A stretch of DNA of 64,000 bases, taken from positions 453,183 to 517,182 of the forward strand of contig JAKLFP010000001.1 of NCBI GenBank assembly GCA_022711115.1. Direction: 5' to 3'. The translations under genes were made by a program, and so were the position numbers. Source of the DNA: Candidatus Omnitrophota bacterium. GTDB taxonomy: Bacteria > Omnitrophota > Omnitrophia > Omnitrophales > Aquincolibacteriaceae. The notes beneath the pieces are model-generated. The model was not told the DNA's origin. It saw nothing but the letters and a program-made list of their open reading frames with translations, and did no database searches. Below, piece after piece: positions 2,128 through 52,655 of this stretch (the stretch's first letter is position 1; the number at the start of each line of letters is the position of its first letter).

Positions 2128-2195
2128 GTAAATAAAGAAAAGCAGAAAAATCTTTTTGCTTTTCCCGCTCCACGCTCTTCATCCTCGAGACAAAC

Positions 2196-4013: not shown

Positions 4014-4150
4014 AGATATTTCTCATAACCTCCAAGGCCACATTGAATCGATATCCAAAGAGATTCATATAAAGCTTAATCAATATATTTTTTTAAAGAA
4101 TGCAGTTATATTATCTTGCCAAATATACATATATAAAAAATCTCATATAG

Positions 4151-4166
4151 AGTTTCACGTGAAACG
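4151..4166. promoter_or_regulatory. parS centromere-like site (aGTTTCACGTGAAACg)
   Basis: 14-bp perfect palindrome GTTTCACGTGAAAC matching the parS consensus TGTTNCACGTGAAACA. Lies in the AT-rich 470-bp gap between mnmG and parA. Confidence 0.75.
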
Positions 4167-4457
4167 GCACAGTATTTTTTAAACTCATAGAGCTTCATTT
4201 AAAGATTATCTATTTAGAGGGCTATCCGAAAAATTTCGGATTCCGCTTTCACAAAAAGAAAAGTCCAAAATTTTTTACGGTATTGATATTATCATCAAAA
4301 TTTCGAAAAATGTCTCCAGGCTCTTAAAATTTTATTCTATGGCGAGCTCAGAGATGAACCGTATAAAATCAAATTTTAATGATTGAATGCCGTAAAAAAC
4401 GATGTAAAATAACTGTAATATTTGCCGATGTTATTTATGGCATACTAAGAAAACAAT

Positions 4458-4473
4458 GTTTCACGTGAAACGT
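4458..4473. promoter_or_regulatory. parS centromere-like site (TGTTTCACGTGAAACg)
   Basis: 15/16 match to the parS consensus. Located 12 bp upstream of the parA start, just before an AGGAGG ribosome-binding site. Confidence 0.8.
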
Positions 4474-4484
4474 CAGGAGGTTCT

Positions 4485-5360
4485 ATGGGTAAAATATTTT
4501 CATTTTTCAATCAAAAAGGTGGCGTAGGAAAAACAACTTCTGTTATAAACATAGCTGCAGTTTTATCTCAGCAAGGTAAAAAATGTCTTATCATAGATCT
4601 AGATTCTCAAGCTAACGCTACAAGTGGTATTGGGATAGAGAAAAATGATAACGAATCCACAGCCTATCAAATTCTTGTTGATAAGTCAGATCCGTCCAGC
4701 TGCATCAAAAAAACCGCTATAGAGAATTTATGGATCATTCCATCAAACGCCCATTTAGCCGGAGCTGAAATGCATCTTATCAGTCAGGAAAAAAGAGAAT
4801 ATATTCTTAAAGAACAACTTCAAAAAATTTCTAGTGGCTATGATTTTATTTTTATTGATTGTCCGCCATCTCTTGGGCTAACAAGTATAAATGCTTTAAC
4901 AGCAAGCAATTATATCATTATACCTCTTCAGTGTGAGTACTATGCCTTAGAAGGACTTGGGCAACTTCTCAACACTTACCAGCTTGTAAAGAAAAATTTG
5001 AGCCAAGAACTTGAGCTTGGAGGAGTTATTTTGACGATGGCTGATTTCCGAACCAATTTAACGCAGCAAGTTGTCGAAGAAGTTCGAAGTTATTTCAAAG
5101 AGAAGGTTTTTCAAAACATAATTCCGAGATCCGTAAAACTTTCCGAGGCTCCAAGCTTTGGAAAGCCAGCTATTTTGTATGACCCTCACAACAAAGGATC
5201 GCAAAGCTATGTCGAGCTCGGAAAAGAATTTTTTATGAGATTTTCTCCCGGAGAAATCTTTTCGATGACAACCAATTCCGAGCCCAACACAGCTGTAGAA
5301 ACTCAAGCTGCACCACCAGAAAACATTCAAGAACAAATTCCGATAAAGCAGGAAGGATAA
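4485..5360 (+). CDS. parA: Chromosome partitioning ATPase ParA/Soj
   Basis: Deviant Walker A motif KGGVGKTT at the N-terminus, with ParA-family similarity throughout. AGGAGG RBS 4 nt upstream. Has a low-complexity C-terminal tail. Confidence 0.9.
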   Translation: MGKIFSFFNQKGGVGKTTSVINIAAVLSQQGKKCLIIDLDSQANATSGIGIEKNDNESTAYQILVDKSDPSSCIKKTAIENLWIIPSNAHLAGAEMHLISQEKREYILKEQLQKISSGYDFIFIDCPPSLGLTSINALTASNYIIIPLQCEYYALEGLGQLLNTYQLVKKNLSQELELGGVILTMADFRTNLTQQVVEEVRSYFKEKVFQNIIPRSVKLSEAPSFGKPAILYDPHNKGSQSYVELGKEFFMRFSPGEIFSMTTNSEPNTAVETQAAPPENIQEQIPIKQEG

Positions 5361-5392
5361 TGAAACCACAACCTATTTATTTATAAGGAGTT

Positions 5393-6355
5393 ATGATTAT
5401 GAAAAAAGCCCTTGGCAAAGGATTAAGCGCATTAATCCCTGATAGCTATGTTAAGGAACAACAAGACGCAGCCGTTGCAACTCAATACGAGGAACAAAAA
5501 CAAGCCGTTGTCGAAACTTTACCGCCAAAAGACGAAGTTTTAATTCAAAAAGATCTCGCCTCTGAAGCTTTTCAGCTTTTGCCTATAGCCAAGATTATTC
5601 CCAACGAAGATCAACCGAGAAAGAAATTTAATAACGAAACAATCGAAGAGCTTGCGAATTCCATAAAAGAAAAAGGCGTTTTGCAGCCCATTATTGTTAA
5701 GCGAGTCAATGAAAGTCAGTACAAATTAGTTTGTGGCGAAAGGAGATTTCGCGCAGCTTCTCTTTGTGGCCTTTCCGAAGTCCCGGCGGTAATCAAGGAT
5801 GTTGCCACAGAGGATTTTTTGGAATGGGCCTTGATCGAAAACATCCAACGGGAAGACTTGAATCCTCTGGAAGAAGCCGAAGCGTATCAGAGGCTGGTTG
5901 AAGAAAGAATGCTTTCTCAGGAAGAAGTTGCGAAACGCGTTGGTAAAAACCGAACAACCGTGACGAATATTCTAAGGCTTTTAAGATTACCCGACGAGGT
6001 GAAATTGTATTTGTCGGAAGGGCGGCTTTCCTCAGGACATGCCCGCGCGCTTTTGGGATTGTTGACACCGGAACATCAAAGACATATGGCGAAACGGATT
6101 GTGGAAGAGAATTTATCGGTCCGTCAGGTGGAAGCCATTGTCGGCCGCAGCGTTGCGCATAAGAGAAAAGCAAAAACAGCACGTCACCTCAGCGCCGAGA
6201 TCGTGGATCTCGAGACAAGACTGACGCATTTTCTTGGGACTCAGGCAAAAATCTATCCTAGGAAGAATCAAAAAGAAGGACGCATTGAAATCCAGTACTT
6301 TTCTTTGGACGATCTGGATCGCGTTCTTCAAAAGATAGGACTTCCTCGGGGGTAA
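5393..6355 (+). CDS. parB: Chromosome partitioning protein ParB/Spo0J
   Basis: ParB N-terminal box (GKGLSALIP), the ParB/Srx motif VCGERRFRAA, and an HTH region. Follows parA directly. Confidence 0.9.
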   Translation: MIMKKALGKGLSALIPDSYVKEQQDAAVATQYEEQKQAVVETLPPKDEVLIQKDLASEAFQLLPIAKIIPNEDQPRKKFNNETIEELANSIKEKGVLQPIIVKRVNESQYKLVCGERRFRAASLCGLSEVPAVIKDVATEDFLEWALIENIQREDLNPLEEAEAYQRLVEERMLSQEEVAKRVGKNRTTVTNILRLLRLPDEVKLYLSEGRLSSGHARALLGLLTPEHQRHMAKRIVEENLSVRQVEAIVGRSVAHKRKAKTARHLSAEIVDLETRLTHFLGTQAKIYPRKNQKEGRIEIQYFSLDDLDRVLQKIGLPRG

Positions 6356-12693: not shown

Positions 12694-13947
12694 ATGACAA
12701 AAGCCGTTTTTGAAAGGAGCGCAACCAATATGATGATCAAACAAATGCTCAAGGACCGTATTTTAACAGATAAAGAACGAAAGAATCTTGCGATTCTTGA
12801 GGTCATTCGAAAAAACGGACCGATTTCCAGGACGGACATTTCCAAGCTTACTGAATTAAATATCGTTACCGTTTCCAACTATGTGAATCATTACATCAAA
12901 AAAGGACTTGTTGTCGAGGGAGAGCTGGATGAATCCACGGGGGGACGCAAGCCGGTCCTCGTCGAACTTAATCCCAAATCCGGATATATCGTTGGCGTAG
13001 GACTTAATATGATGAGCATGGTGGGCGTGCTTGTAGATCTTGAAATTAATGTGATCAGCGAAGTGAAGCGTGAAAGATCCCCGGAAAATTCCGAAAAAGT
13101 CATTTTGGAAATGGTCGATCTTGCGGCCGAGATTATCGATAAGGCAGAAATTGATAAATCAAAAATCGTGGGCGTCGGCGTCGGCGTGCCAGGGATTATT
13201 GATGAACGTGGCCGGACCATTCGCTGGCCGCAAAGTCTCGGCGATAAGGATATTTCGGTTTGCTCTTCCATCAAAGACACCTTCGAACGAAGATTAAACA
13301 TCCCGACAATTGTTGAAAATGACGCGAATGCGGCGGTGCTCGGAGAAAAATGGCTTGGGCTGGATCGTGACGTTCGCCATATGCTGTACATGTTCTCAGG
13401 CGTTGGCTGCGGTATTCTGATAAATGAGGAAATTTATCGCGGGGCCAACGGGGCTGCCGGAGAGCTCGGGATTAACAGCGCCCATTCGACCAAAGAATAT
13501 TCTCACAAAATCGCGACCCAGCTTGGACGGTGGGAAATGGATATCGGGATGGTTCGTCACGCACGCGAAAGGATCGAAAAAGGAGAAGAATCGATCTTGA
13601 AAGATTTGGTGCGTGGGGACCTGAACCTGCTGACTTTTAAAGAGATTGTCAGGGGCGTCAAAGAAAAAGATTCCCTGACCCTTAAAGTTGTTGAACAGGC
13701 CGGGCAAGACCTTGGGAAAAAAATAGCTTTTATCGTAAACCTTTTTAATCCGGAAGTTGTCGTGATCGGCGGGGGCATCGAAGATTGCGGCGCCACGCTG
13801 CTGGATTCTATCAAAAGCACAGTAAAAGAATGGTCTGTGGAAGAAGCCGCGTCGCAGGTCAAAATCATCCCTTCTGCTTTTGGTGAAAACGCCGTTGCGC
13901 TTGGTGTTGTGGGCATCGTCGCCCGAGAAATTTTCGCGCAGGCTTAA
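12694..13947 (+). CDS. ROK-family transcriptional regulator (NagC/XylR-like)
   Basis: N-terminal winged HTH (LAILEVIRKNGPISRTDISKLTELNIVTVSNYV) followed by a ROK sugar-kinase-like domain with glycine-rich GVGVGVPG. Confidence 0.8.
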   Translation: MTKAVFERSATNMMIKQMLKDRILTDKERKNLAILEVIRKNGPISRTDISKLTELNIVTVSNYVNHYIKKGLVVEGELDESTGGRKPVLVELNPKSGYIVGVGLNMMSMVGVLVDLEINVISEVKRERSPENSEKVILEMVDLAAEIIDKAEIDKSKIVGVGVGVPGIIDERGRTIRWPQSLGDKDISVCSSIKDTFERRLNIPTIVENDANAAVLGEKWLGLDRDVRHMLYMFSGVGCGILINEEIYRGANGAAGELGINSAHSTKEYSHKIATQLGRWEMDIGMVRHARERIEKGEESILKDLVRGDLNLLTFKEIVRGVKEKDSLTLKVVEQAGQDLGKKIAFIVNLFNPEVVVIGGGIEDCGATLLDSIKSTVKEWSVEEAASQVKIIPSAFGENAVALGVVGIVAREIFAQA

Positions 13948-13971: not shown

Positions 13972-15006
13972 ATGATGGCTCTTATTCAAGAGCTTAAAGA
14001 AAAGGTTCTTTCCGGAGGTGAGATTTCTTCTGGCGAGGCTCTTTGCTTGGCTGTGACTGAAGAGCCCGAAATCGTGGACGCTTTGCTTGAAGCGGCCCAT
14101 GAGATTACGCTTCATTTCTGTTCGCAAAAGCCGGACCTTTGTTCCCTCATCAATGCAAAAAGCTACCTTTGCGCCGAAGACTGCGGTTTTTGTTCCCAAT
14201 CTTCTCATTATCAAACCGGTGCAGCACGTTACCCGCTCATGGAACCTGAGGAAATCGTACGCGTTGCAAAACAGTGCGAAAAAAAAGGCGTCCAAAGTTT
14301 TTGCATAGTGACAAGCGGTGAAACCTTAAATGCCCGGGAATTTGAACAGGTTCTTGAGACTTTTCATCGATTGAACGCAGAAACCGGTTTAAATCTTGAC
14401 GGATCGTTAGGCAATTTGACTGCGGGGCAGATTTGCAAACTCAAAGAAGCCGGGATGCGTCGTTTTAATCACAACCTGCAGTGCTCGCGCGATTTTTATC
14501 CAAAAATTGTTTCCACGCATACTTATGATAAACGAATGGAAACGTTGAAATTTTTGGAGGAAAACAAAGTCGAAATTTGTTCCGGCGGGATCTTAGGAAT
14601 GGGAGAAAGCCGTGAAGACAGAATCAAGCTTGCGTTTGAACTGAAAGCTTACGACCTGCATTGCCTGCCTATTAATATCTTAAATCCAAGGCCTGGAACA
14701 CCGCTTTGCAATCAGCTGCCTATCAACCCTTTAGAAATCATAAAAACCATTGCTATTTATCGCTTCATCCACCCGAAAGCCAATATCAAACTTGCCGGAG
14801 GACGGGAGCTCAATCTCGGAGTCTATTTTCAGGAAAAAGCCTTGCGCGGCGGCGCGAATGGACTGGTAGTTGGCGGTTATCTCACCACCGCTGGGAATCC
14901 GCTTCAAGAAGATATCAACATGCTCAGGCGGACAGGTTTTCTTGTCGGGGCGAATCAAGAACAGCCTTGCTGTAAGGGCTCTCAAACTTCAGTAACAAGT
15001 TGTTAG
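13972..15006 (+). CDS. bioB: Biotin synthase
   Basis: Radical SAM CxxxCxxC (CAEDCGFCSQSS). Also BioB motifs FNHNL, CSGGILGMGE, PINILNPRPGTPL and GGRE. Has an extra Cys-rich C-terminal tail (PCCKGSQTSVTSC). Confidence 0.9.
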   Translation: MMALIQELKEKVLSGGEISSGEALCLAVTEEPEIVDALLEAAHEITLHFCSQKPDLCSLINAKSYLCAEDCGFCSQSSHYQTGAARYPLMEPEEIVRVAKQCEKKGVQSFCIVTSGETLNAREFEQVLETFHRLNAETGLNLDGSLGNLTAGQICKLKEAGMRRFNHNLQCSRDFYPKIVSTHTYDKRMETLKFLEENKVEICSGGILGMGESREDRIKLAFELKAYDLHCLPINILNPRPGTPLCNQLPINPLEIIKTIAIYRFIHPKANIKLAGGRELNLGVYFQEKALRGGANGLVVGGYLTTAGNPLQEDINMLRRTGFLVGANQEQPCCKGSQTSVTSC

Positions 15007-15009
15007 GCC

Positions 15010-15738
15010 TTGGAACCTCTTCTTAAAGAAAAAACAATCCTCATTACAGGCGGCACAAGCCAACTGGGGCAGTCCTTTGTCCGGAAAGCTCTTGAACAAG
15101 GCGCCAAAGTTTTTTTTACCTACTTTCGAAACAAGGACTTTGCAGAACAATTACAAAAACTTGGCGCTAAGGGCTACCCTTGCGACCTGGCCAACATCAA
15201 TTCCATACATGAATTTGTCGCGGTCTTCAGGAAAGACGCTGAGCAGCTCGATGTTCTTATCCATAATGCGGCAATGACTGCGGACACAACGATCGAAAAA
15301 ATGTCGGAACAAGAATGGGATGCGGTGATGAAGGTGAATTTAAAAGCACCGTTCTATCTCACGAAGCAACTTTTGCCGCTGCTTTTTAAAGTTACACCAA
15401 GCAAAGTTTTTATGGTGGTAAGCCGGGCAGGCCTGAGCGGTCTTTATGGTGCGGCGAATTATGCGGCTTCCAAGGGCGGGCTTATTGCCATGGCCAAAAC
15501 GCTTGCCAAGGAGCTTGGACGGAAGAAAGTTCTCGTCAATGCCGTCAACCCGGGATTTATGTGTTCGGGCATGACTGTCCACGTCCCCGACAAAGTTTTG
15601 CAGAAAAACATCGAGGAAAGCCCGCTCAAAACCTTTTCCGGTCCTGAGGAAGTTGCCGGTTTTCTTGTTTATCTTTCTTCAGGTCTGATGCGACAGGTGA
15701 CAGGCCAAGTCTTTCATTTTGAATCCCGCCCGATATAG
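15010..15738 (+). CDS. FabG-like short-chain dehydrogenase (3-oxoacyl-ACP reductase homolog) embedded in the bio operon
   Basis: TTG start 4 bp after the bioB stop. TGGTSQLG Rossmann motif, and the active-site region VVSRAGLSGLYGAANYAASKGG contains the S...YxxxK catalytic residues. Confidence 0.75.
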   Translation: MEPLLKEKTILITGGTSQLGQSFVRKALEQGAKVFFTYFRNKDFAEQLQKLGAKGYPCDLANINSIHEFVAVFRKDAEQLDVLIHNAAMTADTTIEKMSEQEWDAVMKVNLKAPFYLTKQLLPLLFKVTPSKVFMVVSRAGLSGLYGAANYAASKGGLIAMAKTLAKELGRKKVLVNAVNPGFMCSGMTVHVPDKVLQKNIEESPLKTFSGPEEVAGFLVYLSSGLMRQVTGQVFHFESRPI

Positions 15739-15783
15739 GATAGAATTCCATTCTACTCATCAGCCAGGAGAGACATTATTACT

Positions 15784-16989
15784 ATGAAGCGACGTGTTGT
15801 GATCACAGGAATAGGCATTCTTTCTCCGATCGGGAACACCCTTAAAGAATTCGAGGAAAGTCTGAAAAAAGGAGTTTGCGGCAAGGACGACGCCGACTCT
15901 TCCAAAGTTTTGGGGTATAAGTTTCCGCCGCTTTTTCGTCTCAAAAACTTTAATCCGCATTCTTATGGTACGCACCTTCTGGACCCTTTTATTCAATATG
16001 CGGTAGCGGCGGCAGAACAGGCAATCAAGGATGCGAAGTTTGACCTTCAGTCCGTCGATCCTTACAGCATCGCATTGTCCGTCAGTTCCAGCAAAGGAGG
16101 CGTTCACACTCTGGATCGCCTAAAAGAACGGTTTCTTAAAAAACCCACGGCCATTTTGGGCGCAAGGCTTTATACCAGCGCCGTTCCGAATTTTGCCGAC
16201 CAATGGATCGCCAGGCGAATGGGTATTAAAGGGCCGGCTAAATGTTATGTAGCCGCATGCGCCACCGGAACCGTTGCCGTCATCGCTGGTTTTCGGATGG
16301 TTTCAGAAGGTCAGGCGGAATATTGTTTGGCAGGAGCGACCGACGCTTCGATTACACCGTTGATGCTCGGGGGCTACCAGAACATGGGCGCTCTTGCGAA
16401 AAGGAATATCCGTCCTTTTGATAAACACCGTGATGGATTTTTAGTCGGAGAAGGCGCCGGCGTCCTTTTTCTTGAAACGCTCGAAAGCGCGAAAAAACGC
16501 GGGGCAAAAATTTACGGCGAGATCCTCGAGGCAGCGCATGGGCAAAACACCACAGATCCAATCGCTTTTGATCCCGGCGACCACGCATTGTCTTTTACCC
16601 TTAAAACATTGATGCATCGGGCCGGGCTTTCTCCGGAGGAAATCGATTATATCAACCTGCATGGCACCGGGACGCGGCATGGCGATTTGTATGAAACGCT
16701 TGAATTGAAAGAAACTTTCGGAAAGCAGGCATACAAAATTCCGATGAGCTCCACCAAAGGGATGACAGGCCACATGCTTGGCGCGACAGGGGCCGCGGAG
16801 ATTATCGCGACGCTTTTGGGGATGCAGGAAAGTTTTGTGCCGCCGACCATCGGACTCGATCAAAAAGACCCCGCGTGCGACTTGGATTACACACCGGGAG
16901 AAATGCGTTCTCAAAAAATCACAACAGCGATCAAAATTTCCATGGGTTTTGGCGGACAGGTCGCGGTGATGGCGCTGCGCCGGCTATGA
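15784..16989 (+). CDS. KAS I/II-type beta-ketoacyl-ACP synthase (FabF/FabB-like) embedded in the bio operon
   Basis: 401 aa. N-terminus RRVVITGIGILSPIGN. Active-site Cys in VAACATGTVAV. His motifs NLHGTGTRHGD and KGMTGHMLGATGAAE. Its stop overlaps the bioF start as ATGA. Confidence 0.8.
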   Translation: MKRRVVITGIGILSPIGNTLKEFEESLKKGVCGKDDADSSKVLGYKFPPLFRLKNFNPHSYGTHLLDPFIQYAVAAAEQAIKDAKFDLQSVDPYSIALSVSSSKGGVHTLDRLKERFLKKPTAILGARLYTSAVPNFADQWIARRMGIKGPAKCYVAACATGTVAVIAGFRMVSEGQAEYCLAGATDASITPLMLGGYQNMGALAKRNIRPFDKHRDGFLVGEGAGVLFLETLESAKKRGAKIYGEILEAAHGQNTTDPIAFDPGDHALSFTLKTLMHRAGLSPEEIDYINLHGTGTRHGDLYETLELKETFGKQAYKIPMSSTKGMTGHMLGATGAAEIIATLLGMQESFVPPTIGLDQKDPACDLDYTPGEMRSQKITTAIKISMGFGGQVAVMALRRL

Positions 16990-18146
16990 GAAAAATCTGC
17001 CTTTCAGAGCTAGAAGAACTTAAACAGAGAAATCTTTACAGGGAATTGCGCGTCCTTGAAAACCATCAAGGCACAAAGGCCTATTTTCAAGGCCGTGAAC
17101 TACTTCTCTTTTGCAGCAATGATTATCTCGGATTAAGTCGCCATTCCCGGGTTGTCCAAGCATCACAAAAGGCACTGAAGCAATATGGCATTGGCGCGGG
17201 CGCAGCAAGGCTTATTTCCGGTAGCACGGAGGCACACAAAAGACTCGAGCAGAAAATCGCATGCCTCAAACAAAAAGAAAGCGCGCTCGTTTTTGCAACA
17301 GGATTTCTCGCCAATCTCGGGATTTTAACGGCGTTTGCCGGAGAAGGCGATGTGATCATTATGGATAAGCTTTGTCATGCGTCACTCATTGACGGCGCGC
17401 GGCTCTCCAAATCCGAGTTGCGCGTTTTTCCTCATAAAAATTATCGCAAGTGCGAAGAACTTCTTCAAAAAAGCAAAGACGCGCGAAGGCGAATTTTGGT
17501 AAGCGAAACTGTTTTCAGCATGGATGGTGATCTTGCGGACTTGAGAGAACTTATCCGTCTGAAAGAAAAATACGATGCTTTTTTTATGGTAGATGACGCG
17601 CATGGCACGGGCGTGCTTGGCCCGTATGGGCGTGGGGCCACCGAGAACAAAAAAATAGCCGGAAAAATCGACATCATCATGGGAACGCTTTCCAAAGCTA
17701 TCGGCGGATTGGGAGGTTTTGTCGCCGCGGACAAAGCTTTGGTCCATTATCTTATTAATTTTGCACGCCCATTCATTTTCACAACCGCCTTGCCGCCGGT
17801 TTTATGCGAAGCCGCTTACGCAGCTTTTTGTGTGATAGAAGAAGAACCGGCCATCAGAAAAAAACTTTGGCAAAACATCCAAGCAATTCATAAGGGCTTA
17901 ACGAAGCTCGACTTTTCGATTGCAAAACCCGAATCCGCGATTTTACCTGTCCTCTTTGGCAATGAAAGAAAAGCCATAGCGGCTTTTGAAGCGTTGCTGA
18001 AGCAAGGAATTTTTATCCCGGCGGTCCGCTACCCGACTGTTCCAAAAGGCAAAGCCCGGCTCCGCATCACGGTCAGCGCTGCGCATACCCAAAAAGATAT
18101 TGCAAAATTACTTCTGGCATTCAAAAAACTGAAGGCCGCTAAATAG
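16986..18146 (+). CDS. bioF: 8-amino-7-oxononanoate synthase
   Basis: PLP-dependent alpha-oxoamine synthase with full-length BioF resemblance and a SKAIGG-type lysine region. Start chosen at the internal ATG (MRKICLSELEELK...) that overlaps the KAS stop (ATGA); the listed ORF begins 111 nt earlier. Confidence 0.85.
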   Translation: MRKICLSELEELKQRNLYRELRVLENHQGTKAYFQGRELLLFCSNDYLGLSRHSRVVQASQKALKQYGIGAGAARLISGSTEAHKRLEQKIACLKQKESALVFATGFLANLGILTAFAGEGDVIIMDKLCHASLIDGARLSKSELRVFPHKNYRKCEELLQKSKDARRRILVSETVFSMDGDLADLRELIRLKEKYDAFFMVDDAHGTGVLGPYGRGATENKKIAGKIDIIMGTLSKAIGGLGGFVAADKALVHYLINFARPFIFTTALPPVLCEAAYAAFCVIEEEPAIRKKLWQNIQAIHKGLTKLDFSIAKPESAILPVLFGNERKAIAAFEALLKQGIFIPAVRYPTVPKGKARLRITVSAAHTQKDIAKLLLAFKKLKAAK

Positions 18147-18159
18147 AGAGACATTTCTT

Positions 18160-18810
18160 ATGATGAGAAAAACGATTCTAGTTGTTTTTTTTCTGGCAAT
18201 GATTTTTCAAGGAAGAAGTTTTGCGGCGGAAGGGAAATCCGTCAAATTACCGCCGCCACAAAGAGAGAACGGGAAACCTTTAATGCAGGCGTTGGGCGAA
18301 CGGCATAGCAGCCGCGAGTTCAGCCCCGAAGAGATTTCTCTGCAAACGCTTTCCAATCTTCTTTGGGCTGCAAATGGAATAAATCGTCCGGATGGGCGCC
18401 GGACCGCCCCTTCGGCGCATAACGCACAGGAAATCGATATTTATGTCGCTAAGAGAGAGGCGCTTTATTTATACCATGCCGACACCCACGAATTAACGTC
18501 TGTAGCCCAGGGAGACTTCCGGTCTTTCACCGGAAAGCAGTCTTTTGTCAAGGATGCGCCGGTGAGCCTTATCTTTGTTACCGATCTTGAAAAGCTGAGC
18601 GGAGATTCCGAACAAGATGCGAATTTTTACAGCAATACAGATACAGGCTATATCAGCCAAAATGTTTATCTCTATTGTGCTTCGGAAGGTCTTGCCACAG
18701 TGGTTCTTGGGTGGATTGACCGGGATCAAATAAACACAATTCTGAAACTTCGTCCACGACAACGCGTTATTCTGACCCAGCCTGTGGGTTATCCTAAAAA
18801 CAAAAAATGA
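18160..18810 (+). CDS. Nitroreductase-family flavoprotein with an N-terminal Sec-type signal peptide
   Basis: 216 aa. Clear signal peptide (MMRKTILVVFFLAMIFQGRSFA/AE). Nitroreductase-fold blocks (RHSSREFSPEEISLQTLSNLLWAANGINR...). Stop overlaps the bioA start (ATGA). Confidence 0.65.
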   Translation: MMRKTILVVFFLAMIFQGRSFAAEGKSVKLPPPQRENGKPLMQALGERHSSREFSPEEISLQTLSNLLWAANGINRPDGRRTAPSAHNAQEIDIYVAKREALYLYHADTHELTSVAQGDFRSFTGKQSFVKDAPVSLIFVTDLEKLSGDSEQDANFYSNTDTGYISQNVYLYCASEGLATVVLGWIDRDQINTILKLRPRQRVILTQPVGYPKNKK

Positions 18811-20153
18811 ACAAAAACGATTTAGTTGCTAAAGACAAAAAATATATCTGGCATCCATTCACGCAGATGCGTGATTGGCAATCGGAAGACGTGCTGGTGA
18901 TTGAAAAAGGCGAGGGTTGTTATTTGGTCGATACCCAAGGCCGCCGGTATCTCGACGGCGTGTCGTCGCTTTGGTGCAATGTGCACGGTCATCGCGTGAA
19001 AGCGCTCGACCAGGCCATTAAAAAACAGCTCGGAAAAATCGCACACAGCACTTTTTTAGGTCTCACCCACCCGCTAGCCATTGAACTTGCCGAAAGGCTT
19101 CTCTCTATGGCGCCAAAAGGTTTAACGCGCGTTTTTTATTCGGATTCAGGGTCCGAAGCCATGGAGATCGCACTCAAAATGGCGTTTCAATATTGGCAAC
19201 AATGCGGCCAGACGGGAAAAAAGAAATTTGCGAAACTTACCCATGCTTATCACGGTGACACGATCGGATCGGTAAGCGTTGGCGGCATCGATCTTTTCCA
19301 TCAGATCTACAAACCGCTTCTTTTTGATACCTTCGCAGTGCCGTCGCCTTATTGCTACCGGTGGCCTTCTACAAGCGATCCCGAGGAGGTCAAAGAAGCA
19401 TCTTTGAAAGCCATGGAAGCACTCTTCAAAAAGCATCATAAAGAGATCGCCGCATTAGTCATGGAACCTTTGATGCAAGGTGCGGCCGGGATGATCGACC
19501 AGCCGAAAGGATATATTTTCCGTGCGCGGCAACTGACAGAAAAGTATAATATCCTCCTGATCTTTGATGAAGTCGCTACGGGATTTGGTCGGACAGGGAA
19601 GATGTTCGCCGCGGGGCATGAGAAAGTTACTCCGGACCTTATGGCCGTTGCCAAAGGCATTACGGGCGGCTATTTACCGCTTGCCGCGACGCTCACGACC
19701 GAAAAAATTTATAAGGCGTTTCTTGGCAACTACGAAGAATTCAAAACATTTTTTCACGGACATACTTATACTGCCAATCCGTTGGCCTGCGCCGTCGCCA
19801 TCGCAAATCTCAAGCTTTTTGAAAAACAGAAAACAATCCGGAAGACACAAGCCAAAATTCGGCTGGTACAGGATCGGCTAAAAGGTTTTTATAATCTTCG
19901 CCATGTCGGTGATATCCGGCAAGTTGGTATGATGATCGGGATTGAATTGGTCCGTGATAAAAAGACCAAAGAAACTTACGATTCCAAAGAAAAGATTGGC
20001 ATTCGAGTGATTGAAAAAGCGAGAAAAAAAGGAGCCATCTTGCGCCCGCTAGGGTCTGTGATCGTATTGATGCCTCCTTTAGGGATGCATGAAAGACAGC
20101 TTCAACAGTTATTGAATATCACCTACCGGTCGATAAAAGAAGTTACTGAATAG
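18807..20153 (+). CDS. bioA: Adenosylmethionine-8-amino-7-oxononanoate aminotransferase
   Basis: Class III aminotransferase with BioA N-terminus (YIWHPFTQM...LVIEKGEGCYLVDTQGRRYLDGVSSLWCNVHGH) and a PLP lysine region. Confidence 0.9.
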   Translation: MNKNDLVAKDKKYIWHPFTQMRDWQSEDVLVIEKGEGCYLVDTQGRRYLDGVSSLWCNVHGHRVKALDQAIKKQLGKIAHSTFLGLTHPLAIELAERLLSMAPKGLTRVFYSDSGSEAMEIALKMAFQYWQQCGQTGKKKFAKLTHAYHGDTIGSVSVGGIDLFHQIYKPLLFDTFAVPSPYCYRWPSTSDPEEVKEASLKAMEALFKKHHKEIAALVMEPLMQGAAGMIDQPKGYIFRARQLTEKYNILLIFDEVATGFGRTGKMFAAGHEKVTPDLMAVAKGITGGYLPLAATLTTEKIYKAFLGNYEEFKTFFHGHTYTANPLACAVAIANLKLFEKQKTIRKTQAKIRLVQDRLKGFYNLRHVGDIRQVGMMIGIELVRDKKTKETYDSKEKIGIRVIEKARKKGAILRPLGSVIVLMPPLGMHERQLQQLLNITYRSIKEVTE

Positions 20154-20198: not shown

Positions 20199-20951
20199 AT
20201 GCGAGGGAATATGAAAGCGGCAGGGATTTTTATCACAGGGACAGATACCGACGTCGGTAAAACCGTCGTCGCTGCGGGGCTTGCTCTCGTTCTTCGTGAT
20301 CGCGGACTCAAGGTTGGTGTGATGAAGCCAGTCGCGACAGGATGTTATGGCCTGGAGGAGAGGCTTATTCCTCAGGATGCCGCTTTTCTGATGGAGGCCG
20401 CACAAAATCAATTTGCCCCTTTAACGAGCCCGTCGCGTTTCCGGAATCCTCTGGCGCCAAGCGTTGCAGCCATGCTTGAAAAAAAAGAAGTCAATATTCA
20501 AAACATTCTCAAATGCTACCAACAGCTCCAGAAACATTATGATTTTCTTATCGTAGAAGGCGTAGGAGGTCTGATGGTGCCGCTCAAAAAAGATTATTAT
20601 GTGGCGAACCTCATTCGCGAGATGGGGCTGCCAATTCTAATTGTTTCTTATGCAGGACTCGGGGCCATCAACCATACGCTTTTGACCGTGGATGCGGCTG
20701 TGATCCGCGGTTTGGAATTACGGGGTATTATTTTTAACCGTGTTTCTGTTACGAATTATTCCTTGGCTGAGTTGACCAATCCCAAGGTGATTCACGATCT
20801 TTCGGGAGTTCCTATTTTGGGAAGTTTGCCAGATGTCGAAGGATTAAATCTGGATAGTTGTCAATTCGGCAGCCTCAAAGAGATCTTTCAGGAGCGAATC
20901 CAAGTCGACAAAATCCTTGGAGGTTTTACGCATCTAGCTCCTAGAAGATAG
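20199..20951 (+). CDS. bioD: Dethiobiotin synthetase
   Basis: P-loop FITGTDTDVGKT and BioD-like length (250 aa). Confidence 0.85.
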   Translation: MRGNMKAAGIFITGTDTDVGKTVVAAGLALVLRDRGLKVGVMKPVATGCYGLEERLIPQDAAFLMEAAQNQFAPLTSPSRFRNPLAPSVAAMLEKKEVNIQNILKCYQQLQKHYDFLIVEGVGGLMVPLKKDYYVANLIREMGLPILIVSYAGLGAINHTLLTVDAAVIRGLELRGIIFNRVSVTNYSLAELTNPKVIHDLSGVPILGSLPDVEGLNLDSCQFGSLKEIFQERIQVDKILGGFTHLAPRR

Positions 20952-20968: not shown

Positions 20969-22285
20969 TTGTCCACTCGCAACTTCGTTGGCATCCGCCT
21001 TGAAAGGAAAAAAGAGGCCAGTCTGCTTAACTGGAACCTCAAGCGGCCCTACACCCCCGAGAGAGTTCGTATTTCACTTCCAGCGACTGCCTACCCTTGC
21101 GTTCACGTCGGGAACAATGTGCAAACAGGGCAGAAGATCGCAGATCCCGTCGGGCCTGGGTGTGCGACCGTGCATTCAAGCATGGAAGGAGTCATCGAAA
21201 AGATAGCGATTTTTCCGGATGCGACAGGCGGCGAGAGTATGACGGTAGAGGTTCGCAGGCAAGGGGACCCCAAAGCGCCCGCAACATTCGAAAATGTTCG
21301 AAAAAACTGGGAGATTCTCAAGGAAGAAGAGCTTTTAGACATCTTTCAAAATTCCGGGATCGTTACCACAGATGCCTTGATGCAACCGGTACACGCCAAA
21401 ATAAAAAAAAATGAACAGCATCCAACTTTGATTATCAACGGCTGCGAACCTGAGCCGTACGTTACTTGTGAACAGGTGCTGGCCATGGCACATCCCCTGG
21501 AAATATTAAAAGGCGCCGAGATCTTAAAAAAAACTACGCGGGCAAACCAAATCCTTTTTGTTTTTGAAGATTGCAACTTGGAGTTAGTGGAACTTTTCAA
21601 AAGCAAAATTTATTTTTTAAAATGGGAACATGTCAAAGTGCGAACAGTGCCGGCCGTTTACCCGCAAGGACATGAAACCACATTGCTTCAGCGCTGGTTT
21701 TCCGGCAAAGAAGACCAGGCGATTGTGTTTCCAGCCTCCACGGCTTTTGCCGTTTATGAGGCGGTAGTTCACCAAAAGCCTTTTTATGAAAGAGTCTTGA
21801 CCGTAGGAGGCGAGTGTGTGATAGAACCGCGGAGTCTTTGGCTGCCTCTTGGAATTTCTTTTCGGGATGCCATTCACACCTGTAAGGGCGTTATGCGCGA
21901 ACCTCAGAAGGTTATCATGGGTGGACCCATGGCCGGAACAGCACAAGAGAATCTGGAAGTTTCTGTGATGGCGGGGACAAACGCTATTTTAGCGCTACCC
22001 AAAGAGGTTATAAGGGATAAAGCTGAAGAACCGTGCATTCGTTGCGGTGCCTGCGTTGACATGTGTCCGGTGTCTTTGTCACCCGCTATGATTACCTTGG
22101 CGGCGGAACACGGCGAATTTGAACTTGCGGAGAAATGGGATGTTTCAGCCTGCATCGAATGCGGTAATTGTAGTTATGTCTGCCCATCAAAGCGGCCGAT
22201 GTTGAAATGGATAAGAAAGGCTCAGGCGGAGATGGCCCAAACGGCTTTGCCCAAAAGTCAAAAAAACCATGAATACGCATCTTAA
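20969..22285 (+). CDS. RnfC/PduS-family iron-sulfur subunit homolog lacking the glycine-rich NADH/flavin motif
   Basis: TTG start with AAAGGA RBS, 18 bp after the bioD stop. N-terminal RnfC_N-like segment (LPATAYPCVHVGNNVQTGQKIADPVGPGCATVHSSMEGVIEKI). Two ferredoxin motifs (CIRCGACVDMCP, CIECGNCSYVCP). At the place where RnfC has GxGGAGFP the sequence reads SGIVTTDALMQP. Confidence 0.6.
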   Translation: MSTRNFVGIRLERKKEASLLNWNLKRPYTPERVRISLPATAYPCVHVGNNVQTGQKIADPVGPGCATVHSSMEGVIEKIAIFPDATGGESMTVEVRRQGDPKAPATFENVRKNWEILKEEELLDIFQNSGIVTTDALMQPVHAKIKKNEQHPTLIINGCEPEPYVTCEQVLAMAHPLEILKGAEILKKTTRANQILFVFEDCNLELVELFKSKIYFLKWEHVKVRTVPAVYPQGHETTLLQRWFSGKEDQAIVFPASTAFAVYEAVVHQKPFYERVLTVGGECVIEPRSLWLPLGISFRDAIHTCKGVMREPQKVIMGGPMAGTAQENLEVSVMAGTNAILALPKEVIRDKAEEPCIRCGACVDMCPVSLSPAMITLAAEHGEFELAEKWDVSACIECGNCSYVCPSKRPMLKWIRKAQAEMAQTALPKSQKNHEYAS

Positions 22286-23111
22286 AACATTGTCACCCCA
22301 CATTCGTTCCAGAGATTCTGTCGCCAAGAGATACTGGGGACTCACGCTTGCTTCGGTGCCTGTTTTTGTCGCCGTTATCTTAGGGGGCCAAGCGGGTGCT
22401 CTGAGAGTTCTTTTGTTCAGCATTATCAGCGCAGTAGCGTTTGATTTTTTGGGAGCGAAAATTTTGTTTAAAAAAGAACGTGTCAATAACGGTGAGGCGG
22501 TGCTAAGCGCGACACTTTTGACGCTTCTCCTTCCCAGGAATTGTCCTTTTGAGATTGCCGTATTCGGGATTTTTTTGGCGGTTTTTGTGGTCAAAGAACT
22601 TTTTGGGGGAACAGGCTCCTACCTTTTTCACCCCGTGCTGGCTGCCCGCATTTTTCTTCAAATGAGTTTTCCAGGATTTTTTGAAAACAGCGGCATGATC
22701 TTGGAAGAAAAAAGCGCTCTTTGGATACTTGGGGGGCTTTTAGTCAGCGGGGTGGCTGTCATAAGTCAGAAAAACAATCGGGAAATACCGCTTTTTTATA
22801 TTATGATTTCCTTGCTTTGTGTTTTATTGTTCCATTCTGGCATGGAGTCTTTAACGGTTTTAAATTGGATTTTTTTTACGGCATTTTTTCTTTTGGGAGA
22901 TTCCGTTGCGATGCCTCTGACTCGGAAAGGGACACGGATCTTTGTCTTAGGGGCGGCGCTTTTAAATTTCTTTTTCGAAGCGAAAGGTTTTTCTATGGCG
23001 GCGGCAGGCTACGCCATTTTATTGATGAATGCATTAACGCCATGGCTTGACGTGATGATGAAACCTGCCGCTTACAGAGCCAAGATCCATCTCAAGGCCA
23101 CCTATCCATGA
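22269..23111 (+). CDS. RnfD/NqrB-family membrane subunit homolog (short, no recognisable FMN-attachment motif)
   Basis: 280 aa polytopic. SPHIRS near the N-terminus, GGTGSYLFHPVLAARIFLQMSFP and a C-terminal block AFFLLGDSVAMPLTRKGTRIFVLGAALLNFFFEAKGFSMAAAGYAILLMNALTPWLD typical of RnfD/NqrB. No S/TGAT(P)L motif was found. Confidence 0.6.
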   Translation: MNTHLKTLSPHIRSRDSVAKRYWGLTLASVPVFVAVILGGQAGALRVLLFSIISAVAFDFLGAKILFKKERVNNGEAVLSATLLTLLLPRNCPFEIAVFGIFLAVFVVKELFGGTGSYLFHPVLAARIFLQMSFPGFFENSGMILEEKSALWILGGLLVSGVAVISQKNNREIPLFYIMISLLCVLLFHSGMESLTVLNWIFFTAFFLLGDSVAMPLTRKGTRIFVLGAALLNFFFEAKGFSMAAAGYAILLMNALTPWLDVMMKPAAYRAKIHLKATYP

Positions 23112-23257
23112 ACATAAAAAAAACGGTTTTAACAATGCTTCAGTATTTGTTCTTTGTTCTTTTTGTGGCCGTATTGCTGATCACGCTTTCGGGCGCAAAA
23201 ATGTTGAGCCAAGAGGTTCTGAAGAATGAATGGTATCGGGAGTTGATCCGGCCATGA
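23108..23257 (+). CDS. 49-aa single-TM protein translationally coupled to both neighbours (possible RnfG N-terminal anchor remnant)
   Basis: Not in the ORF track because it is under 60 aa. Its ATG overlaps the rnfD-like stop (ATGA at 23108-23111) and its stop overlaps the next gene's ATG (ATGA at 23254-23257). Sequence MNIKKTVLTMLQYLFFVLFVAVLLITLSGAKMLSQEVLKNEWYRELIRP. Confidence 0.4.
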   Translation: MNIKKTVLTMLQYLFFVLFVAVLLITLSGAKMLSQEVLKNEWYRELIRP

Positions 23258-23775
23258 AAATTCCCGACAGTCTTTTGTCCCGCATCATTTTTGCGTATCT
23301 TCCTTTCATGGTCTATGCCTTTGACCTTGAAAAGGCTTGGATCGCGGTGCTTTGTGTTGTTGCTGTTTTTTGGCTCACCGTTTTTTTCTTCTGGTTTACA
23401 CGGAATCTTTTCCCCGAAAAGCTCCGAAGCGAAGTTTTCTTCTTTTGGCTTCTTGCATGGGCCCAAGCGGTTTGGTATTTCACAAAACTTCAGCCTTTAT
23501 GGGCGCTCAGCGTTTTTTTCTTGATCCCTACCTCTTTTCTTGAGCCGAGCCAGAAAGCCAGCCGGGTGCGCGTTTTTTCTCGAGTGGTTCCGAGGTATTT
23601 TTGGGAAAGATTTTTGGCTGGATTTGGTTTTATCGGTTTTGTGATTGTGATGGCACTTGTTCAGGAGGTTTTAGGGCGCCAGTTCGGGATGATGTCTTTT
23701 CAACGGCCGGCCGGCATTTTGCTTTTACTTTCTTTAGCTGCTTTTTTATGGAAAAACCAGCCATATCAAAGGTGA
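23254..23775 (+). CDS. RnfE/RnfA (Rnf-Nqr) family membrane subunit homolog, divergent
   Basis: Polytopic membrane protein. The C-terminal region FLAGFGFIGFVIVMALVQEVLGRQFG resembles the RnfE block [25 protein letters not shown]. The track lists an alternative start at 23230. Confidence 0.45.
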   Translation: MKIPDSLLSRIIFAYLPFMVYAFDLEKAWIAVLCVVAVFWLTVFFFWFTRNLFPEKLRSEVFFFWLLAWAQAVWYFTKLQPLWALSVFFLIPTSFLEPSQKASRVRVFSRVVPRYFWERFLAGFGFIGFVIVMALVQEVLGRQFGMMSFQRPAGILLLLSLAAFLWKNQPYQR

Positions 23776-23776
23776 G

Positions 23777-24289
23777 ATGATGGTTTATTCTCTAATTATT
23801 ACTTTCGGTTTGTTGTTTGCGATTCGCGGCGTCAAAAGCTTGACGCTGCAAAATCCGGAGAAAACACTTCCTGAAGTCTGGCGCCAGGCCGTCGATTTTT
23901 GTTTGACGCTTGCGTTCACCCTTTTGTATTTTGAAGCCTCATTATGCATTGTAGGTATCCAGAGCTTTGTCCAGGACCATGCCTTGTTGGTGATTGGATT
24001 TTTGGCGTATGTCTTTTCAAAATACCAAAAGAAAACGGATATCTTTTTCCTCTCCATGACAGTCCTCACCTTTTTAATTTATTCCGAACAAAAGAATTTG
24101 CTGCACGGTCTCTTTTGGGTGGGTGCCGTGAGCATTGGGATAGCTTTGTTCCGGACTTGTTTTCTTGGATTGCGATACAAACTTTTGTTTTCTCGTGTTC
24201 CCAAGATGATGCAAGGGTGGCCGATTCTTTGCCTTTTGGCATCTCTTTTATCCCTGGCTCTTTGGGGAATTGGGAGGCTGATTTTCTAA
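23777..24289 (+). CDS. RnfA/RnfE (Rnf-Nqr) family membrane subunit homolog, divergent
   Basis: 170 aa polytopic. The C-terminal RVPKMMQGWPILCLLASLLSLALWGIG resembles the RnfA C-terminus [26 protein letters not shown]. Start is 2 bp after the previous stop. Confidence 0.45.
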   Translation: MMVYSLIITFGLLFAIRGVKSLTLQNPEKTLPEVWRQAVDFCLTLAFTLLYFEASLCIVGIQSFVQDHALLVIGFLAYVFSKYQKKTDIFFLSMTVLTFLIYSEQKNLLHGLFWVGAVSIGIALFRTCFLGLRYKLLFSRVPKMMQGWPILCLLASLLSLALWGIGRLIF

Positions 24290-52642: not shown

Positions 52643-52655
52643 AAAGAACTTCTCT

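What the first reader, a model, noticed from the sequence alone, without database searches (positions are those of the whole stretch)
15010..16989. FabG-like reductase and FabF-like ketoacyl synthase embedded between bioB and bioF
The biotin operon here is bioB, SDR (FabG-like, TTG start 4 bp after bioB), KAS I/II (Cys-His-His intact; stop overlaps bioF start), bioF, bioA, bioD. None of the known pimeloyl-thioester genes (bioC/bioH, bioW, bioI, bioZ) is in the window. A dedicated condensing enzyme plus ketoreductase inside the operon suggests a private fatty-acid-synthase-like route to the pimeloyl moiety. As far as I recall, extended bio operons with FAS-like genes have been noted by comparative genomics in Desulfovibrio, but the chemistry remains uncharacterised. 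I am not certain of that reference.
Basis: partly seen in the sequence, partly recalled or inferred. Interest (0 to 1): 0.6.

Follow-up and report, generated by a model that had tools for sequence, protein, structure and literature searches.

The report
Biotin-operon ketosynthase with lysine-gated pocket
An uncultured Omnitrophota bacterium carries, inside its biotin operon, its own diverged copies of two fatty-acid-synthesis enzymes that most likely build the seven-carbon biotin precursor without the usual methyl-ester trick, a smaller version of a poorly understood pathway known from Desulfovibrio.

Summary
The window (a Candidatus Omnitrophota MAG) encodes bioB, a FabG-like SDR, a FabF-like KAS with an intact Cys-His-His triad, then bioF, bioA and bioD.

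The KAS and SDR are not housekeeping genes.
- Both score below the NCBIfam FabF/FabG cut-offs.
- An Omnitrophica FabF in a canonical plsX-fabHDG-acpP-fabF cluster is 51% identical to E. coli FabF but 36% to this KAS.
- The KAS clade is monophyletic (99/100 NJ bootstrap).
- It has a diagnostic SSSKGG motif. The two FabF "back gate" residues Ile108 and Phe202 are replaced by Lys and Tyr, a plausible omega-carboxylate site.

In 51 related loci this KAS always lies beside bio genes. bioF follows directly in 33 of 37 informative cases, and the SDR lies upstream in 26 of 35. No ACP or dehydratase gene is present in any of them. The nitroreductase is an exported protein of a widespread family that is not linked to biotin, so it is probably a passenger.

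Most likely function: BioC/BioH-independent pimeloyl-ACP synthesis. This is a minimal variant of the Desulfovibrio extended bio cluster (Rodionov 2004; Trotter 2023), whose chemistry is still uncharacterised. Whole-genome absence of bioC/bioH and orthology to DVU2563 could not be tested.

The parts
13972..15006 (+). bioB, biotin synthase
   Evidence: TIGR00433 scores 356 bits against a cut-off of 225. Radical_SAM and BATS domains are present.
15010..15738 (+). FabG-like SDR ketoreductase specific to the bio operon (242 aa, TTG start)
   Evidence: TIGR01830 scores 188.6 bits, below the 297.75 cut-off. Identity is 29% to E. coli FabG and 33% to an Omnitrophica housekeeping FabG. Ser138/Tyr151/Lys155 are invariant in 29 clade members, and Arg139 and a C-terminal Ser-Arg are at least 90% conserved. 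It lies upstream of the KAS in 26 of 35 informative related loci.
15784..16989 (+). FabF-like KAS I/II specific to the bio operon (401 aa), the 'SSSKGG' clade
   Evidence: TIGR03150 scores 359 bits, below the 493.75 cut-off. Identity is 33% to EcFabF and 36% to Omnitrophica FabF. The clade is monophyletic in 99 of 100 NJ bootstraps against about 105 FabF/FabB sequences. bioF is directly downstream in 33 of 37 informative loci.
16084..16101 (+). SSSKGG motif (residues 101-106). Lys104 (16093-16095) replaces the FabF back-gate residue Ile108.
   Evidence: Lys is invariant in 119/119 close homologues, 10/10 distant representatives and 12 further homologues. None of about 105 FabF/FabB sequences has it. 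The back-gate role of I108/F202 comes from PMC9006962.
16258..16260 (+). Catalytic Cys159 codon. His293 is at 16660-16662 and His330 at 16771-16773.
   Evidence: Aligned to EcFabF C163/H303/H340.
16375..16377 (+). Tyr198, which replaces the FabF back-gate residue Phe202
   Evidence: Tyr in 119/119 close homologues and 34/36 of the diverse clade set. Phe in 105/105 FabF/FabB sequences.
16986..18146 (+). bioF, 8-amino-7-oxononanoate synthase
   Evidence: TIGR00858 scores 464 bits against a cut-off of 426. The start overlaps the KAS stop as ATGA.
18160..18810 (+). Exported nitroreductase-family protein, a probable passenger gene in the operon
   Evidence: PF00881 domain. The N-terminal signal peptide is conserved across the family. 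In 79 of 80 genomic loci of this family no bio gene is nearby, and there is no conserved neighbour. It is absent from most KAS-bearing bio operons.
18807..20153 (+). bioA, the SAM-dependent 8-amino-7-oxononanoate (KAPA) transaminase
   Evidence: TIGR00508 scores 563 bits against a cut-off of 405.
20199..20951 (+). bioD, dethiobiotin synthase (alternative start at 20211)
   Evidence: TIGR00347 scores 168 bits against a cut-off of 83. The gene call in public contigs starts at the second Met.

Best explanation
The SDR and KAS are dedicated, bio-operon-resident paralogues of FabG and FabF. Together they supply BioF with pimeloyl-ACP without BioC methylation or BioH demethylation.

Proposed mechanism (all steps inferred):
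- The KAS keeps the Cys-His-His condensing machinery. Its acyl pocket is closed and made polar by Lys104 and Tyr198 in place of the FabF back gate Ile108/Phe202, with Ser101-103 and Ser189 nearby.
- It therefore accepts short primers with a free omega-carboxylate and rejects ordinary fatty-acyl chains.
- It condenses malonyl-ACP (as primer) with malonyl-ACP to give 3-oxoglutaryl-ACP. After reduction it condenses glutaryl-ACP with malonyl-ACP to give 3-oxopimeloyl-ACP.
- The SDR reduces these omega-carboxy 3-oxoacyl-ACPs.
- The housekeeping ACP, FabZ and enoyl reductase do the remaining steps, because no dedicated copies are in the operon.

What is shown: gene identities, paralogy, synteny and the residue signature.
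What is inferred: substrate, product, the number of rounds, and the role of Lys104.
For: 1. Paralogy. Both proteins fall below the FabF/FabG equivalog cut-offs. An Omnitrophica rpmF-plsX-fabH-fabD-fabG-acpP-fabF cluster exists separately. Its FabF is 51% identical to EcFabF but 36% to this KAS, and its FabG is 43% identical to EcFabG but 33% to this SDR. The KAS clade is monophyletic in 99 of 100 NJ bootstraps.
2. Synteny. In 51 related loci the KAS always neighbours bio genes wherever the flanks are informative. bioF is immediately downstream in 33 of 37. Upstream, the SDR is present in 26 of 35 and bioB is directly adjacent in 6 of 35. This holds down to about 40% KAS identity.
3. Pocket. 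FabF GSGIGG becomes SSSKGG and F202 becomes Y, invariant in the clade and absent from about 105 FabF/FabB sequences. I108 and F202 form the back gate at about C7-C8 of the acyl chain (PMC9006962). A basic or polar distal pocket is what was predicted, and in part seen, for BioZ binding the glutaryl carboxylate (PMC7645780; PMC12625853).
4. No known pimelate gene is in the window. AccA in the window shows a biotin-dependent malonyl-CoA supply.
5. Precedent. FAS-like genes in the D. vulgaris bio cluster are required for growth without biotin (PMC10102598). E. coli FabG/FabA/FabI process the BioZ product in vitro.
Against: - There is no experimental evidence for this clade.
- Absence of bioC/bioH/bioW/bioZ/bioE elsewhere in the genome was not testable.
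- No dedicated ACP, dehydratase or enoyl reductase is present, so the housekeeping enzymes would have to accept free-carboxyl C5 intermediates. That is unproven; only the C7 case is shown, in the BioZ work.
- Lys104 sits at a position that faces C7-C8 in FabF, so reaching a C3 malonyl carboxylate is doubtful and the first round may need another solution.
- No 3D coordinates were inspected.
- No BirA operator or other biotin-responsive element was found.
- The SDR is missing from about a quarter of related operons.
Confidence: 0.65

Rival explanations
1. BioZ-like single condensation. The KAS acts only once, condensing a glutaryl thioester made by some catabolic route with malonyl-ACP to give 3-oxopimeloyl-ACP. 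The SDR then reduces that product.
For: Lys104 and Tyr198 lie at the depth of a C5-C7 chain, which suits a glutaryl primer better than a malonyl one. BioZ shows that this chemistry suffices and that housekeeping FabG/FabA/FabI finish the job.
Against: The enzyme is a Cys-His-His KAS I/II type, which normally takes acyl-ACP rather than acyl-CoA primers. No glutaryl-CoA-forming, lysine-degradation or CoA-transferase gene is linked in any of 51 loci. A dedicated KR would hardly be needed, since E. coli FabG reduces 3-oxopimeloyl-ACP.
Confidence: 0.15
2. They are ordinary or back-up fatty-acid-synthesis enzymes (a second FabG/FabF pair). They sit beside the bio genes only because biotin and fatty-acid synthesis are co-regulated.
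For: The best family hits are FabF and FabG, and the closest solved structures are FabF and FabG. The catalytic residues are intact.
Against: Scores are below the equivalog cut-offs. The clade is separate, with 99/100 support. A Lys across the back gate should block chains longer than about C6. Canonical fabG-acpP-fabF exists elsewhere in the phylum. The strict linkage is to bioB/bioF, never to acpP/fabD/fabH.
Confidence: 0.04
3. The nitroreductase-family gene is a working part of the pathway, for example as the missing enoyl-ACP reductase. This would parallel DVU1220 and the cluster-embedded nitroreductase-like genes of Syntrophobacter and Desulfobacter.
For: Trotter 2023 found a nitroreductase requirement and cluster-embedded nitroreductase-like genes. 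Here the gene is translationally coupled to bioA and is also present at the same site in UBA1443.
Against: The family carries a conserved Sec-type signal peptide, so it is exported, away from ACP chemistry. In 79 of 80 loci of the family there is no bio gene nearby and no conserved neighbour. Most SSSKGG-KAS bio operons lack it, and the bioF-bioA gap holds unrelated inserts elsewhere: a small lipoprotein, a GGDEF protein, an efflux pump.
Confidence: 0.12
4. The pair makes a different small acyl product that only shares regulation with biotin genes, such as another dicarboxylate, a lipoate precursor or a polyketide.
For: The product was not determined. A few loci show only bioB-KAS pairs without bioF nearby.
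Against: The neighbours are bona fide BioB/F/A/D equivalogs. The KAS stop overlaps the bioF start. No other tailoring genes are conserved nearby.
Confidence: 0.04

Closest known systems
Desulfovibrio-type extended biotin cluster: DVU2558-DVU2565 plus DVU1220 (Rodionov et al. 2004, PMC545781; Trotter et al. 2023, PMC10102598)
   Same: FabF-like KAS and FabG-like KR genes are embedded among bioB/F/A/D. bioC and bioH are absent from the locus. [quoted passage not shown] Both occur in anaerobes. Biochemistry is unknown for both.
   Different: Here there is no dedicated ACP and no FabZ-like dehydratase (D. vulgaris has one ACP and two FabZ-like genes). No BirA site and no adjacent birA are present. 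The phylum is different (Omnitrophota, and at least one TA06 protein). The nitroreductase here is an exported, non-bio-linked type. Orthology of the KAS/SDR to DVU2563/DVU2561 was not testable with the available collections.
BioZ, a KAS III-type 3-ketoacyl-ACP synthase of alpha-proteobacteria (PMC7645780, PMC8024396, PMC12625853)
   Same: A condensing-enzyme paralogue recruited to biotin synthesis. It tolerates a free omega-carboxyl primer through a polar distal pocket (Ser84/Ser287 H-bond the C5 carboxyl). It bypasses BioC/BioH and relies on housekeeping FabG, dehydratase and enoyl reductase.
   Different: BioZ has the FabH fold, a Cys-His-Asn triad and an acyl-CoA primer from lysine catabolism. 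The enzyme here is a FabF-type Cys-His-His KAS with a Lys/Tyr-modified back gate, and it usually comes with its own ketoreductase.
E. coli BioC-BioH route using housekeeping FabB/FabF, FabG, FabZ and FabI
   Same: Two fatty-acid-synthase-type elongation rounds from a malonyl thioester to a C7 dicarboxyl-ACP, which is handed to BioF.
   Different: E. coli disguises the carboxylate as a methyl ester so that the unmodified hydrophobic FAS enzymes accept it. Here there is no methyltransferase or esterase in the locus, and the condensing enzyme itself appears to be adapted.
Housekeeping FabF (KAS II), e.g. B. subtilis 4LS5 and E. coli 2GFW
   Same: Same fold and catalytic residues. These are the closest solved structures (E = 5e-83).
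   Different: 33-36% identity. GSGIGG becomes SSSKGG. F202Y, E191D, A193S, A279L, A313Y and F398M. It is not next to acpP.

Membership tests
Desulfovibrio-type extended bio cluster | FabF-like KAS and FabG-like KR encoded between biotin ring-assembly genes | tested here: met
   Order is bioB-SDR-KAS-bioF. It is conserved in relatives.
Desulfovibrio-type extended bio cluster | Dedicated acyl carrier protein in the cluster (DVU2562) | tested here: not met
   No ACP in the window or in 55 related loci, using E. coli and Omnitrophica AcpP as tblastn queries and an analysis of unassigned ORFs in the clusters.
Desulfovibrio-type extended bio cluster | FabZ-like dehydratase genes in the cluster (DVU2560, DORF42491) | tested here: not met
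   No FabZ hit. The unassigned ORFs in the clusters are unrelated proteins.
Desulfovibrio-type extended bio cluster | KAS and KR orthologous to DVU2563 and DVU2561 | not testable with these tools
   No Desulfovibrio sequence could be retrieved.
Desulfovibrio-type extended bio cluster | Genome lacks bioC/bioH/bioW and other pimelate routes | not testable with these tools
   Absent from the 64-kb window and from the flanks of related loci.
Desulfovibrio-type extended bio cluster | BirA operator upstream of the operon | tested here: not met
   The best matches to TTGTAAACC-N12-18-GGTTTACAA have at least 4 mismatches and none is near bioB. No palindrome is present near bioB.
Desulfovibrio-type extended bio cluster | Nitroreductase-like protein required or clustered | tested here: inconclusive
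   A nitroreductase-family gene is in the operon, but its family is exported and not bio-linked in 79 of 80 loci.
FabF (KAS II) housekeeping equivalog | Score at or above the TIGR03150 trusted cut-off | tested here: not met
   359 bits against 493.75.
FabF (KAS II) housekeeping equivalog | Cys-His-His triad, Lys335 and gate residue Phe400 | tested here: met
   C159, H293, H330, K325 and F389.
FabF (KAS II) housekeeping equivalog | Hydrophobic Ile108/Phe202 back gate that admits long acyl chains | tested here: not met
   Lys104 and Tyr198 are invariant in the clade.
FabF (KAS II) housekeeping equivalog | Location in the fab cluster next to acpP | tested here: not met
   It lies between the SDR and bioF. 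The canonical Omnitrophica cluster is separate.
FabG housekeeping equivalog | Score at or above the TIGR01830 cut-off, with the Ser-Tyr-Lys triad | tested here: not met
   188.6 bits against 297.75. The triad itself is present. Identity to Omnitrophica FabG is 33%.
BioZ | KAS III (FabH) fold with a Cys-His-Asn triad | tested here: not met
   Pfam assigns ketoacyl-synt and Ketoacyl-synt_C, not ACP_syn_III, and the triad is Cys-His-His.

The most novel reading that the evidence does not exclude
A single remodelled FabF paralogue, with a Lys/Tyr 'carboxylate gate', usually helped by one ketoreductase, is enough to let the ordinary FAS II machinery and the ordinary ACP assemble pimeloyl-ACP from three malonyl units with a free omega-carboxylate. 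That would realise the classical 'three malonates' proposal that was dismissed for canonical FAS enzymes. It would also be a distinct, minimal pimelate pathway that arose independently of the ACP- and dehydratase-containing Desulfovibrio cluster.
Probability: 0.4. Interest if true: 0.75.

Novelty: new variant of a known kind. Interest (0 to 1): 0.6.

Why it matters
How bacteria make the pimelate moiety is the variable and still incomplete part of biotin biosynthesis. The Desulfovibrio FAS-like route has genetic support but no biochemistry.

The Omnitrophota version reduces the problem to one or two genes and gives a concrete residue-level hypothesis: Lys104 and Tyr198 replace the FabF back gate. 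That hypothesis can be tested directly by complementing E. coli bioC/bioH mutants and by in vitro assays.

It would also correct genome-based calls of an incomplete biotin pathway in Omnitrophota and related candidate phyla. The SSSKGG motif would serve as a sequence marker for annotating this step.

Tried and rejected
- The nitroreductase as a marker of bio clusters. An alignment-based scan of species genomes returned 80 loci in many phyla, and only one (the closest relative) had bio genes nearby. The family has no conserved neighbours. I therefore rejected it as a core pathway component. This used the only genome-contig scan, so Desulfovibrio, Syntrophobacter and Desulfobacter clusters could not be fetched for an orthology test.
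- The representative-library search with the KAS was swamped by giant multi-KS polyketide synthases. Only about 11 single-domain hits were usable.
A narrower one worked.
- Searches for a BirA operator, promoters and terminators (not above shuffled expectation), Rfam elements (none) and palindromes near bioB gave no regulatory element.
- The ROK regulator 24 bp upstream was considered as a possible bio regulator and set aside. It travels with the upstream sugar genes and is absent from other bio operons.
- A Biopython bootstrap timed out and was replaced by a numpy neighbour-joining routine.
- A preprint's statement that the Omnitrophota biotin pathway is 'partial' lists only bioF/A/D/B, so I did not use it as evidence that bioC/bioH are absent.
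- No structure prediction was run, because the tool does not return side-chain coordinates.
Full report
**Observation**

They run bioB (13972-15006), a 242-aa SDR (15010-15738), a 401-aa KAS (15784-16989), bioF (from 16986), bioA (18807-20153) and bioD (20199-20951). The SDR has a TTG start 3 nt after the bioB stop. The bioF ATG overlaps the KAS stop as ATGA.

BioB, BioF, BioA and BioD all pass their TIGRFAM equivalog cut-offs. The SDR has the adh_short/KR domains, and the KAS has both ketoacyl-synthase domains. The KAS catalytic residues are intact: Cys159, His293, His330, Lys325 and Phe389 align with E. coli FabF C163, H303, H340, K335 and F400.

Its stop overlaps the bioA start.

The window belongs to a Candidatus Omnitrophota MAG (GCA_035390585.1 and identical contigs). 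It lies near the replication origin, with yidC, mnmG, parA and parB at 490-6355.

**No known pimelate genes in the window**

tblastn with E. coli AcpP, FabZ, FabH, FabD, BioC and BioH found nothing in the 64 kb. An Omnitrophica AcpP query also found nothing. Pfam content of almost every ORF shows no BioW, P450, FabH-like, methyltransferase/esterase pair or BioE. AccA (52491-53705) shows that the organism runs a biotin-dependent acetyl-CoA carboxylase.

**These are not housekeeping genes**

- The KAS scores 359 bits against FabF TIGR03150 (cut-off 493.75). The SDR scores 188.6 bits against FabG TIGR01830 (cut-off 297.75).
- An Omnitrophica contig carries the canonical rpmF-plsX-fabH-fabD-fabG-acpP-fabF cluster.
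- That FabF is 51% identical to E. coli FabF but only 36% to the window KAS. That FabG is 43% identical to E. coli FabG but 33% to the window SDR.
- In a neighbour-joining analysis of 36 diverse relatives of the KAS against about 105 FabF/FabB sequences, the bio-operon clade is a separate bipartition in 99 of 100 bootstraps.

**Residue signature**

The FabF loop G105-S-G-I108-G-G reads S-S-S-K-G-G in the clade. Lys (Lys104 in the window) is invariant in 119/119 close homologues, in 10/10 of the nearest 50%-identity representatives, and in 12 further homologues. None of the FabF/FabB sequences has it.

Phe202 is Tyr (Tyr198) in the clade and Phe in all FabFs. Other clade-wide changes are E191D, A193S, A279L, A313Y and F398M.

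[quoted passage not shown] The gate sits at about C7-C8 of the bound chain, and I108F restricts chain length (PMC9006962). A Lys/Tyr pair there, with several added Ser hydroxyls, should close the pocket to fatty-acyl chains and offer a charged, hydrogen-bonding site for a short chain ending in a carboxylate. This is an inference from alignment; no coordinates were inspected.

The same logic was proposed for BioZ (PMC7645780). In the BioZ-glutaryl-CoA structure the C5 carboxyl is held by two serines at the tunnel bottom (PMC12625853).

The SDR clade keeps Ser138, Tyr151 and Lys155. It also has a conserved Arg immediately after the catalytic Ser, and a conserved C-terminal Ser-Arg, both absent from E. 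coli FabG.

**Synteny**

- A homologue at 68% identity (UBA1443) has bioB-SDR-KAS-bioF-nitroreductase-[efflux pump]-bioA-bioD.
- Homologues at 59% and 50% have bioB-SDR-KAS-bioF-bioA-bioD with no nitroreductase.
- A homologue at about 40% has bioB-SDR-KAS-bioF.
- A metagenome scan with the clade-specific peptide VSSSKGG[VMI]xT returned 46 loci.

Over 51 non-duplicate loci, bioF is immediately downstream of the KAS in 33 of 37 cases with enough flank. Two more have one intervening gene before bioF, and two are bioB-KAS pairs only.

Upstream, 26 of 35 have the SDR, 21 of them adjacent and 5 with an insertion. Six have bioB directly adjacent with no SDR. Three have a different neighbour.

No locus contains an ACP or FabZ homologue.

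In a 382-389-aa subgroup the arrangement is coiled-coil protein, KAS, a 327-aa Rossmann-type oxidoreductase with no Pfam family, bioF, bioD. The one named protein in this subgroup is from candidate division TA06. The oxidoreductase may be a non-orthologous ketoreductase.

**The nitroreductase**

Its family has a conserved Sec-type signal peptide and occurs in many anaerobe phyla. In 79 of 80 genomic loci there is no bio gene within 10 kb. No neighbour family is shared by more than 7 loci.

The bioF-bioA gap holds unrelated inserts in other lineages: a small lipoprotein, a GGDEF protein, an efflux pump. The SDR-KAS gap holds cysD/cysN in four loci.

I therefore treat the nitroreductase as a probable passenger. 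The coincidence with the nitroreductase requirement in D. vulgaris, and with cluster-embedded nitroreductase-like genes in two Desulfobacterota, leaves about a 12% chance that it takes part.

**Regulation**

I found no BirA operator, no promoter or terminator enrichment, no Rfam element and no palindrome. A ROK-family regulator ends 24 bp before bioB, but it belongs with the upstream sugar-utilisation genes and is not conserved next to other bio operons.

**Comparison with what is known**

Rodionov et al. (2004) predicted, and Trotter et al. (2023) supported by transposon fitness, that the ACP, KAS, KR and FabZ-like genes inside the Desulfovibrio bio operon, plus an unlinked nitroreductase, make pimeloyl-ACP without methyl esters. 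The biochemistry is unresolved. Further literature searches found no characterisation of this route and no description of it in Omnitrophota.

The window cluster shares the principle but lacks the dedicated ACP and dehydratases and lacks a BirA site. Orthology to DVU2563/DVU2561 could not be tested. It works like BioZ, as a condensing-enzyme paralogue that tolerates a free carboxylate, but it is not a member of that family (different fold class and triad).

**Verdict**

The most likely function is BioC/BioH-independent pimeloyl-ACP synthesis by a dedicated Lys-gated KAS plus ketoreductase, using the housekeeping ACP, dehydratase and enoyl reductase (confidence about 0.65). A BioZ-like single-condensation variant is the main rival.

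It is a new, minimal variant of a known but biochemically uncharacterised kind. Its value is that it reduces the problem to one or two genes with a testable residue-level hypothesis.

Noticed in passing
window 18160-18810: Nitroreductase-fold protein with a conserved Sec-type signal peptide (MMRKTILVVFFLAMIFQGRSFA|AE). The family is at least 50% identical across Omnitrophota, Planctomycetota, Acidobacteriota, Desulfobacterota, Bacteroidota and others, and has no conserved gene neighbours. An exported flavoenzyme-like protein of unknown role.
   Followed up: yes
L097 9180-10163; L098 9189-10172 (and L098 6688-7950): In a 382-389-aa subgroup of the same KAS clade, the SDR is replaced by a 327-aa protein with an N-terminal GxGxxG Rossmann motif and no Pfam family above threshold. 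It lies between the KAS and bioF. A roughly 420-aa coiled-coil protein precedes the KAS. The 327-aa protein may be a non-orthologous ketoreductase.
   Followed up: partly
L113, L116, L120, L121 (between SDR and KAS); L093 828-7178: Sulfate-assimilation genes are tied to these bio operons in some lineages. cysD/cysN-like genes are inserted between the SDR and KAS. APS kinase, PAPS reductase, ATP sulfurylase, two PALP enzymes, ThiS and a NIL-domain protein lie directly upstream of bioB.
   Followed up: no
window 20969-24289: rnfC and rnfD are followed by two ORFs (23230-23775, 23777-24289) with no Pfam hit, instead of recognisable rnfG/E/A/B. In a relative (L093) a 775-aa multi-DsbA/thioredoxin protein sits between rnfC and rnfD.
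   Followed up: no
window 12694-13947: A ROK-family regulator with an N-terminal winged helix ends only 24 bp before bioB. It is conserved together with the upstream SBP, GH94 phosphorylase and glycoamylase genes in close relatives, so the bio operon may be read through from a sugar-utilisation unit.
   Followed up: partly
window 15421-15426 and 15724-15729: The SDR clade has an Arg immediately after the catalytic Ser (S138-R139; E. coli FabG has Val) and a conserved C-terminal Ser-Arg. These could be carboxylate or ACP contacts.
   Followed up: partly
window 37737-39395 and 60342-61904: Two large ORFs (552 and 520 aa) have no Pfam family.
   Followed up: no
window 490-6355: yidC, mnmG (gidA), parA and parB in a row indicate that the window lies next to the chromosomal replication origin. 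Cumulative GC skew rises steadily across the window.
   Followed up: no
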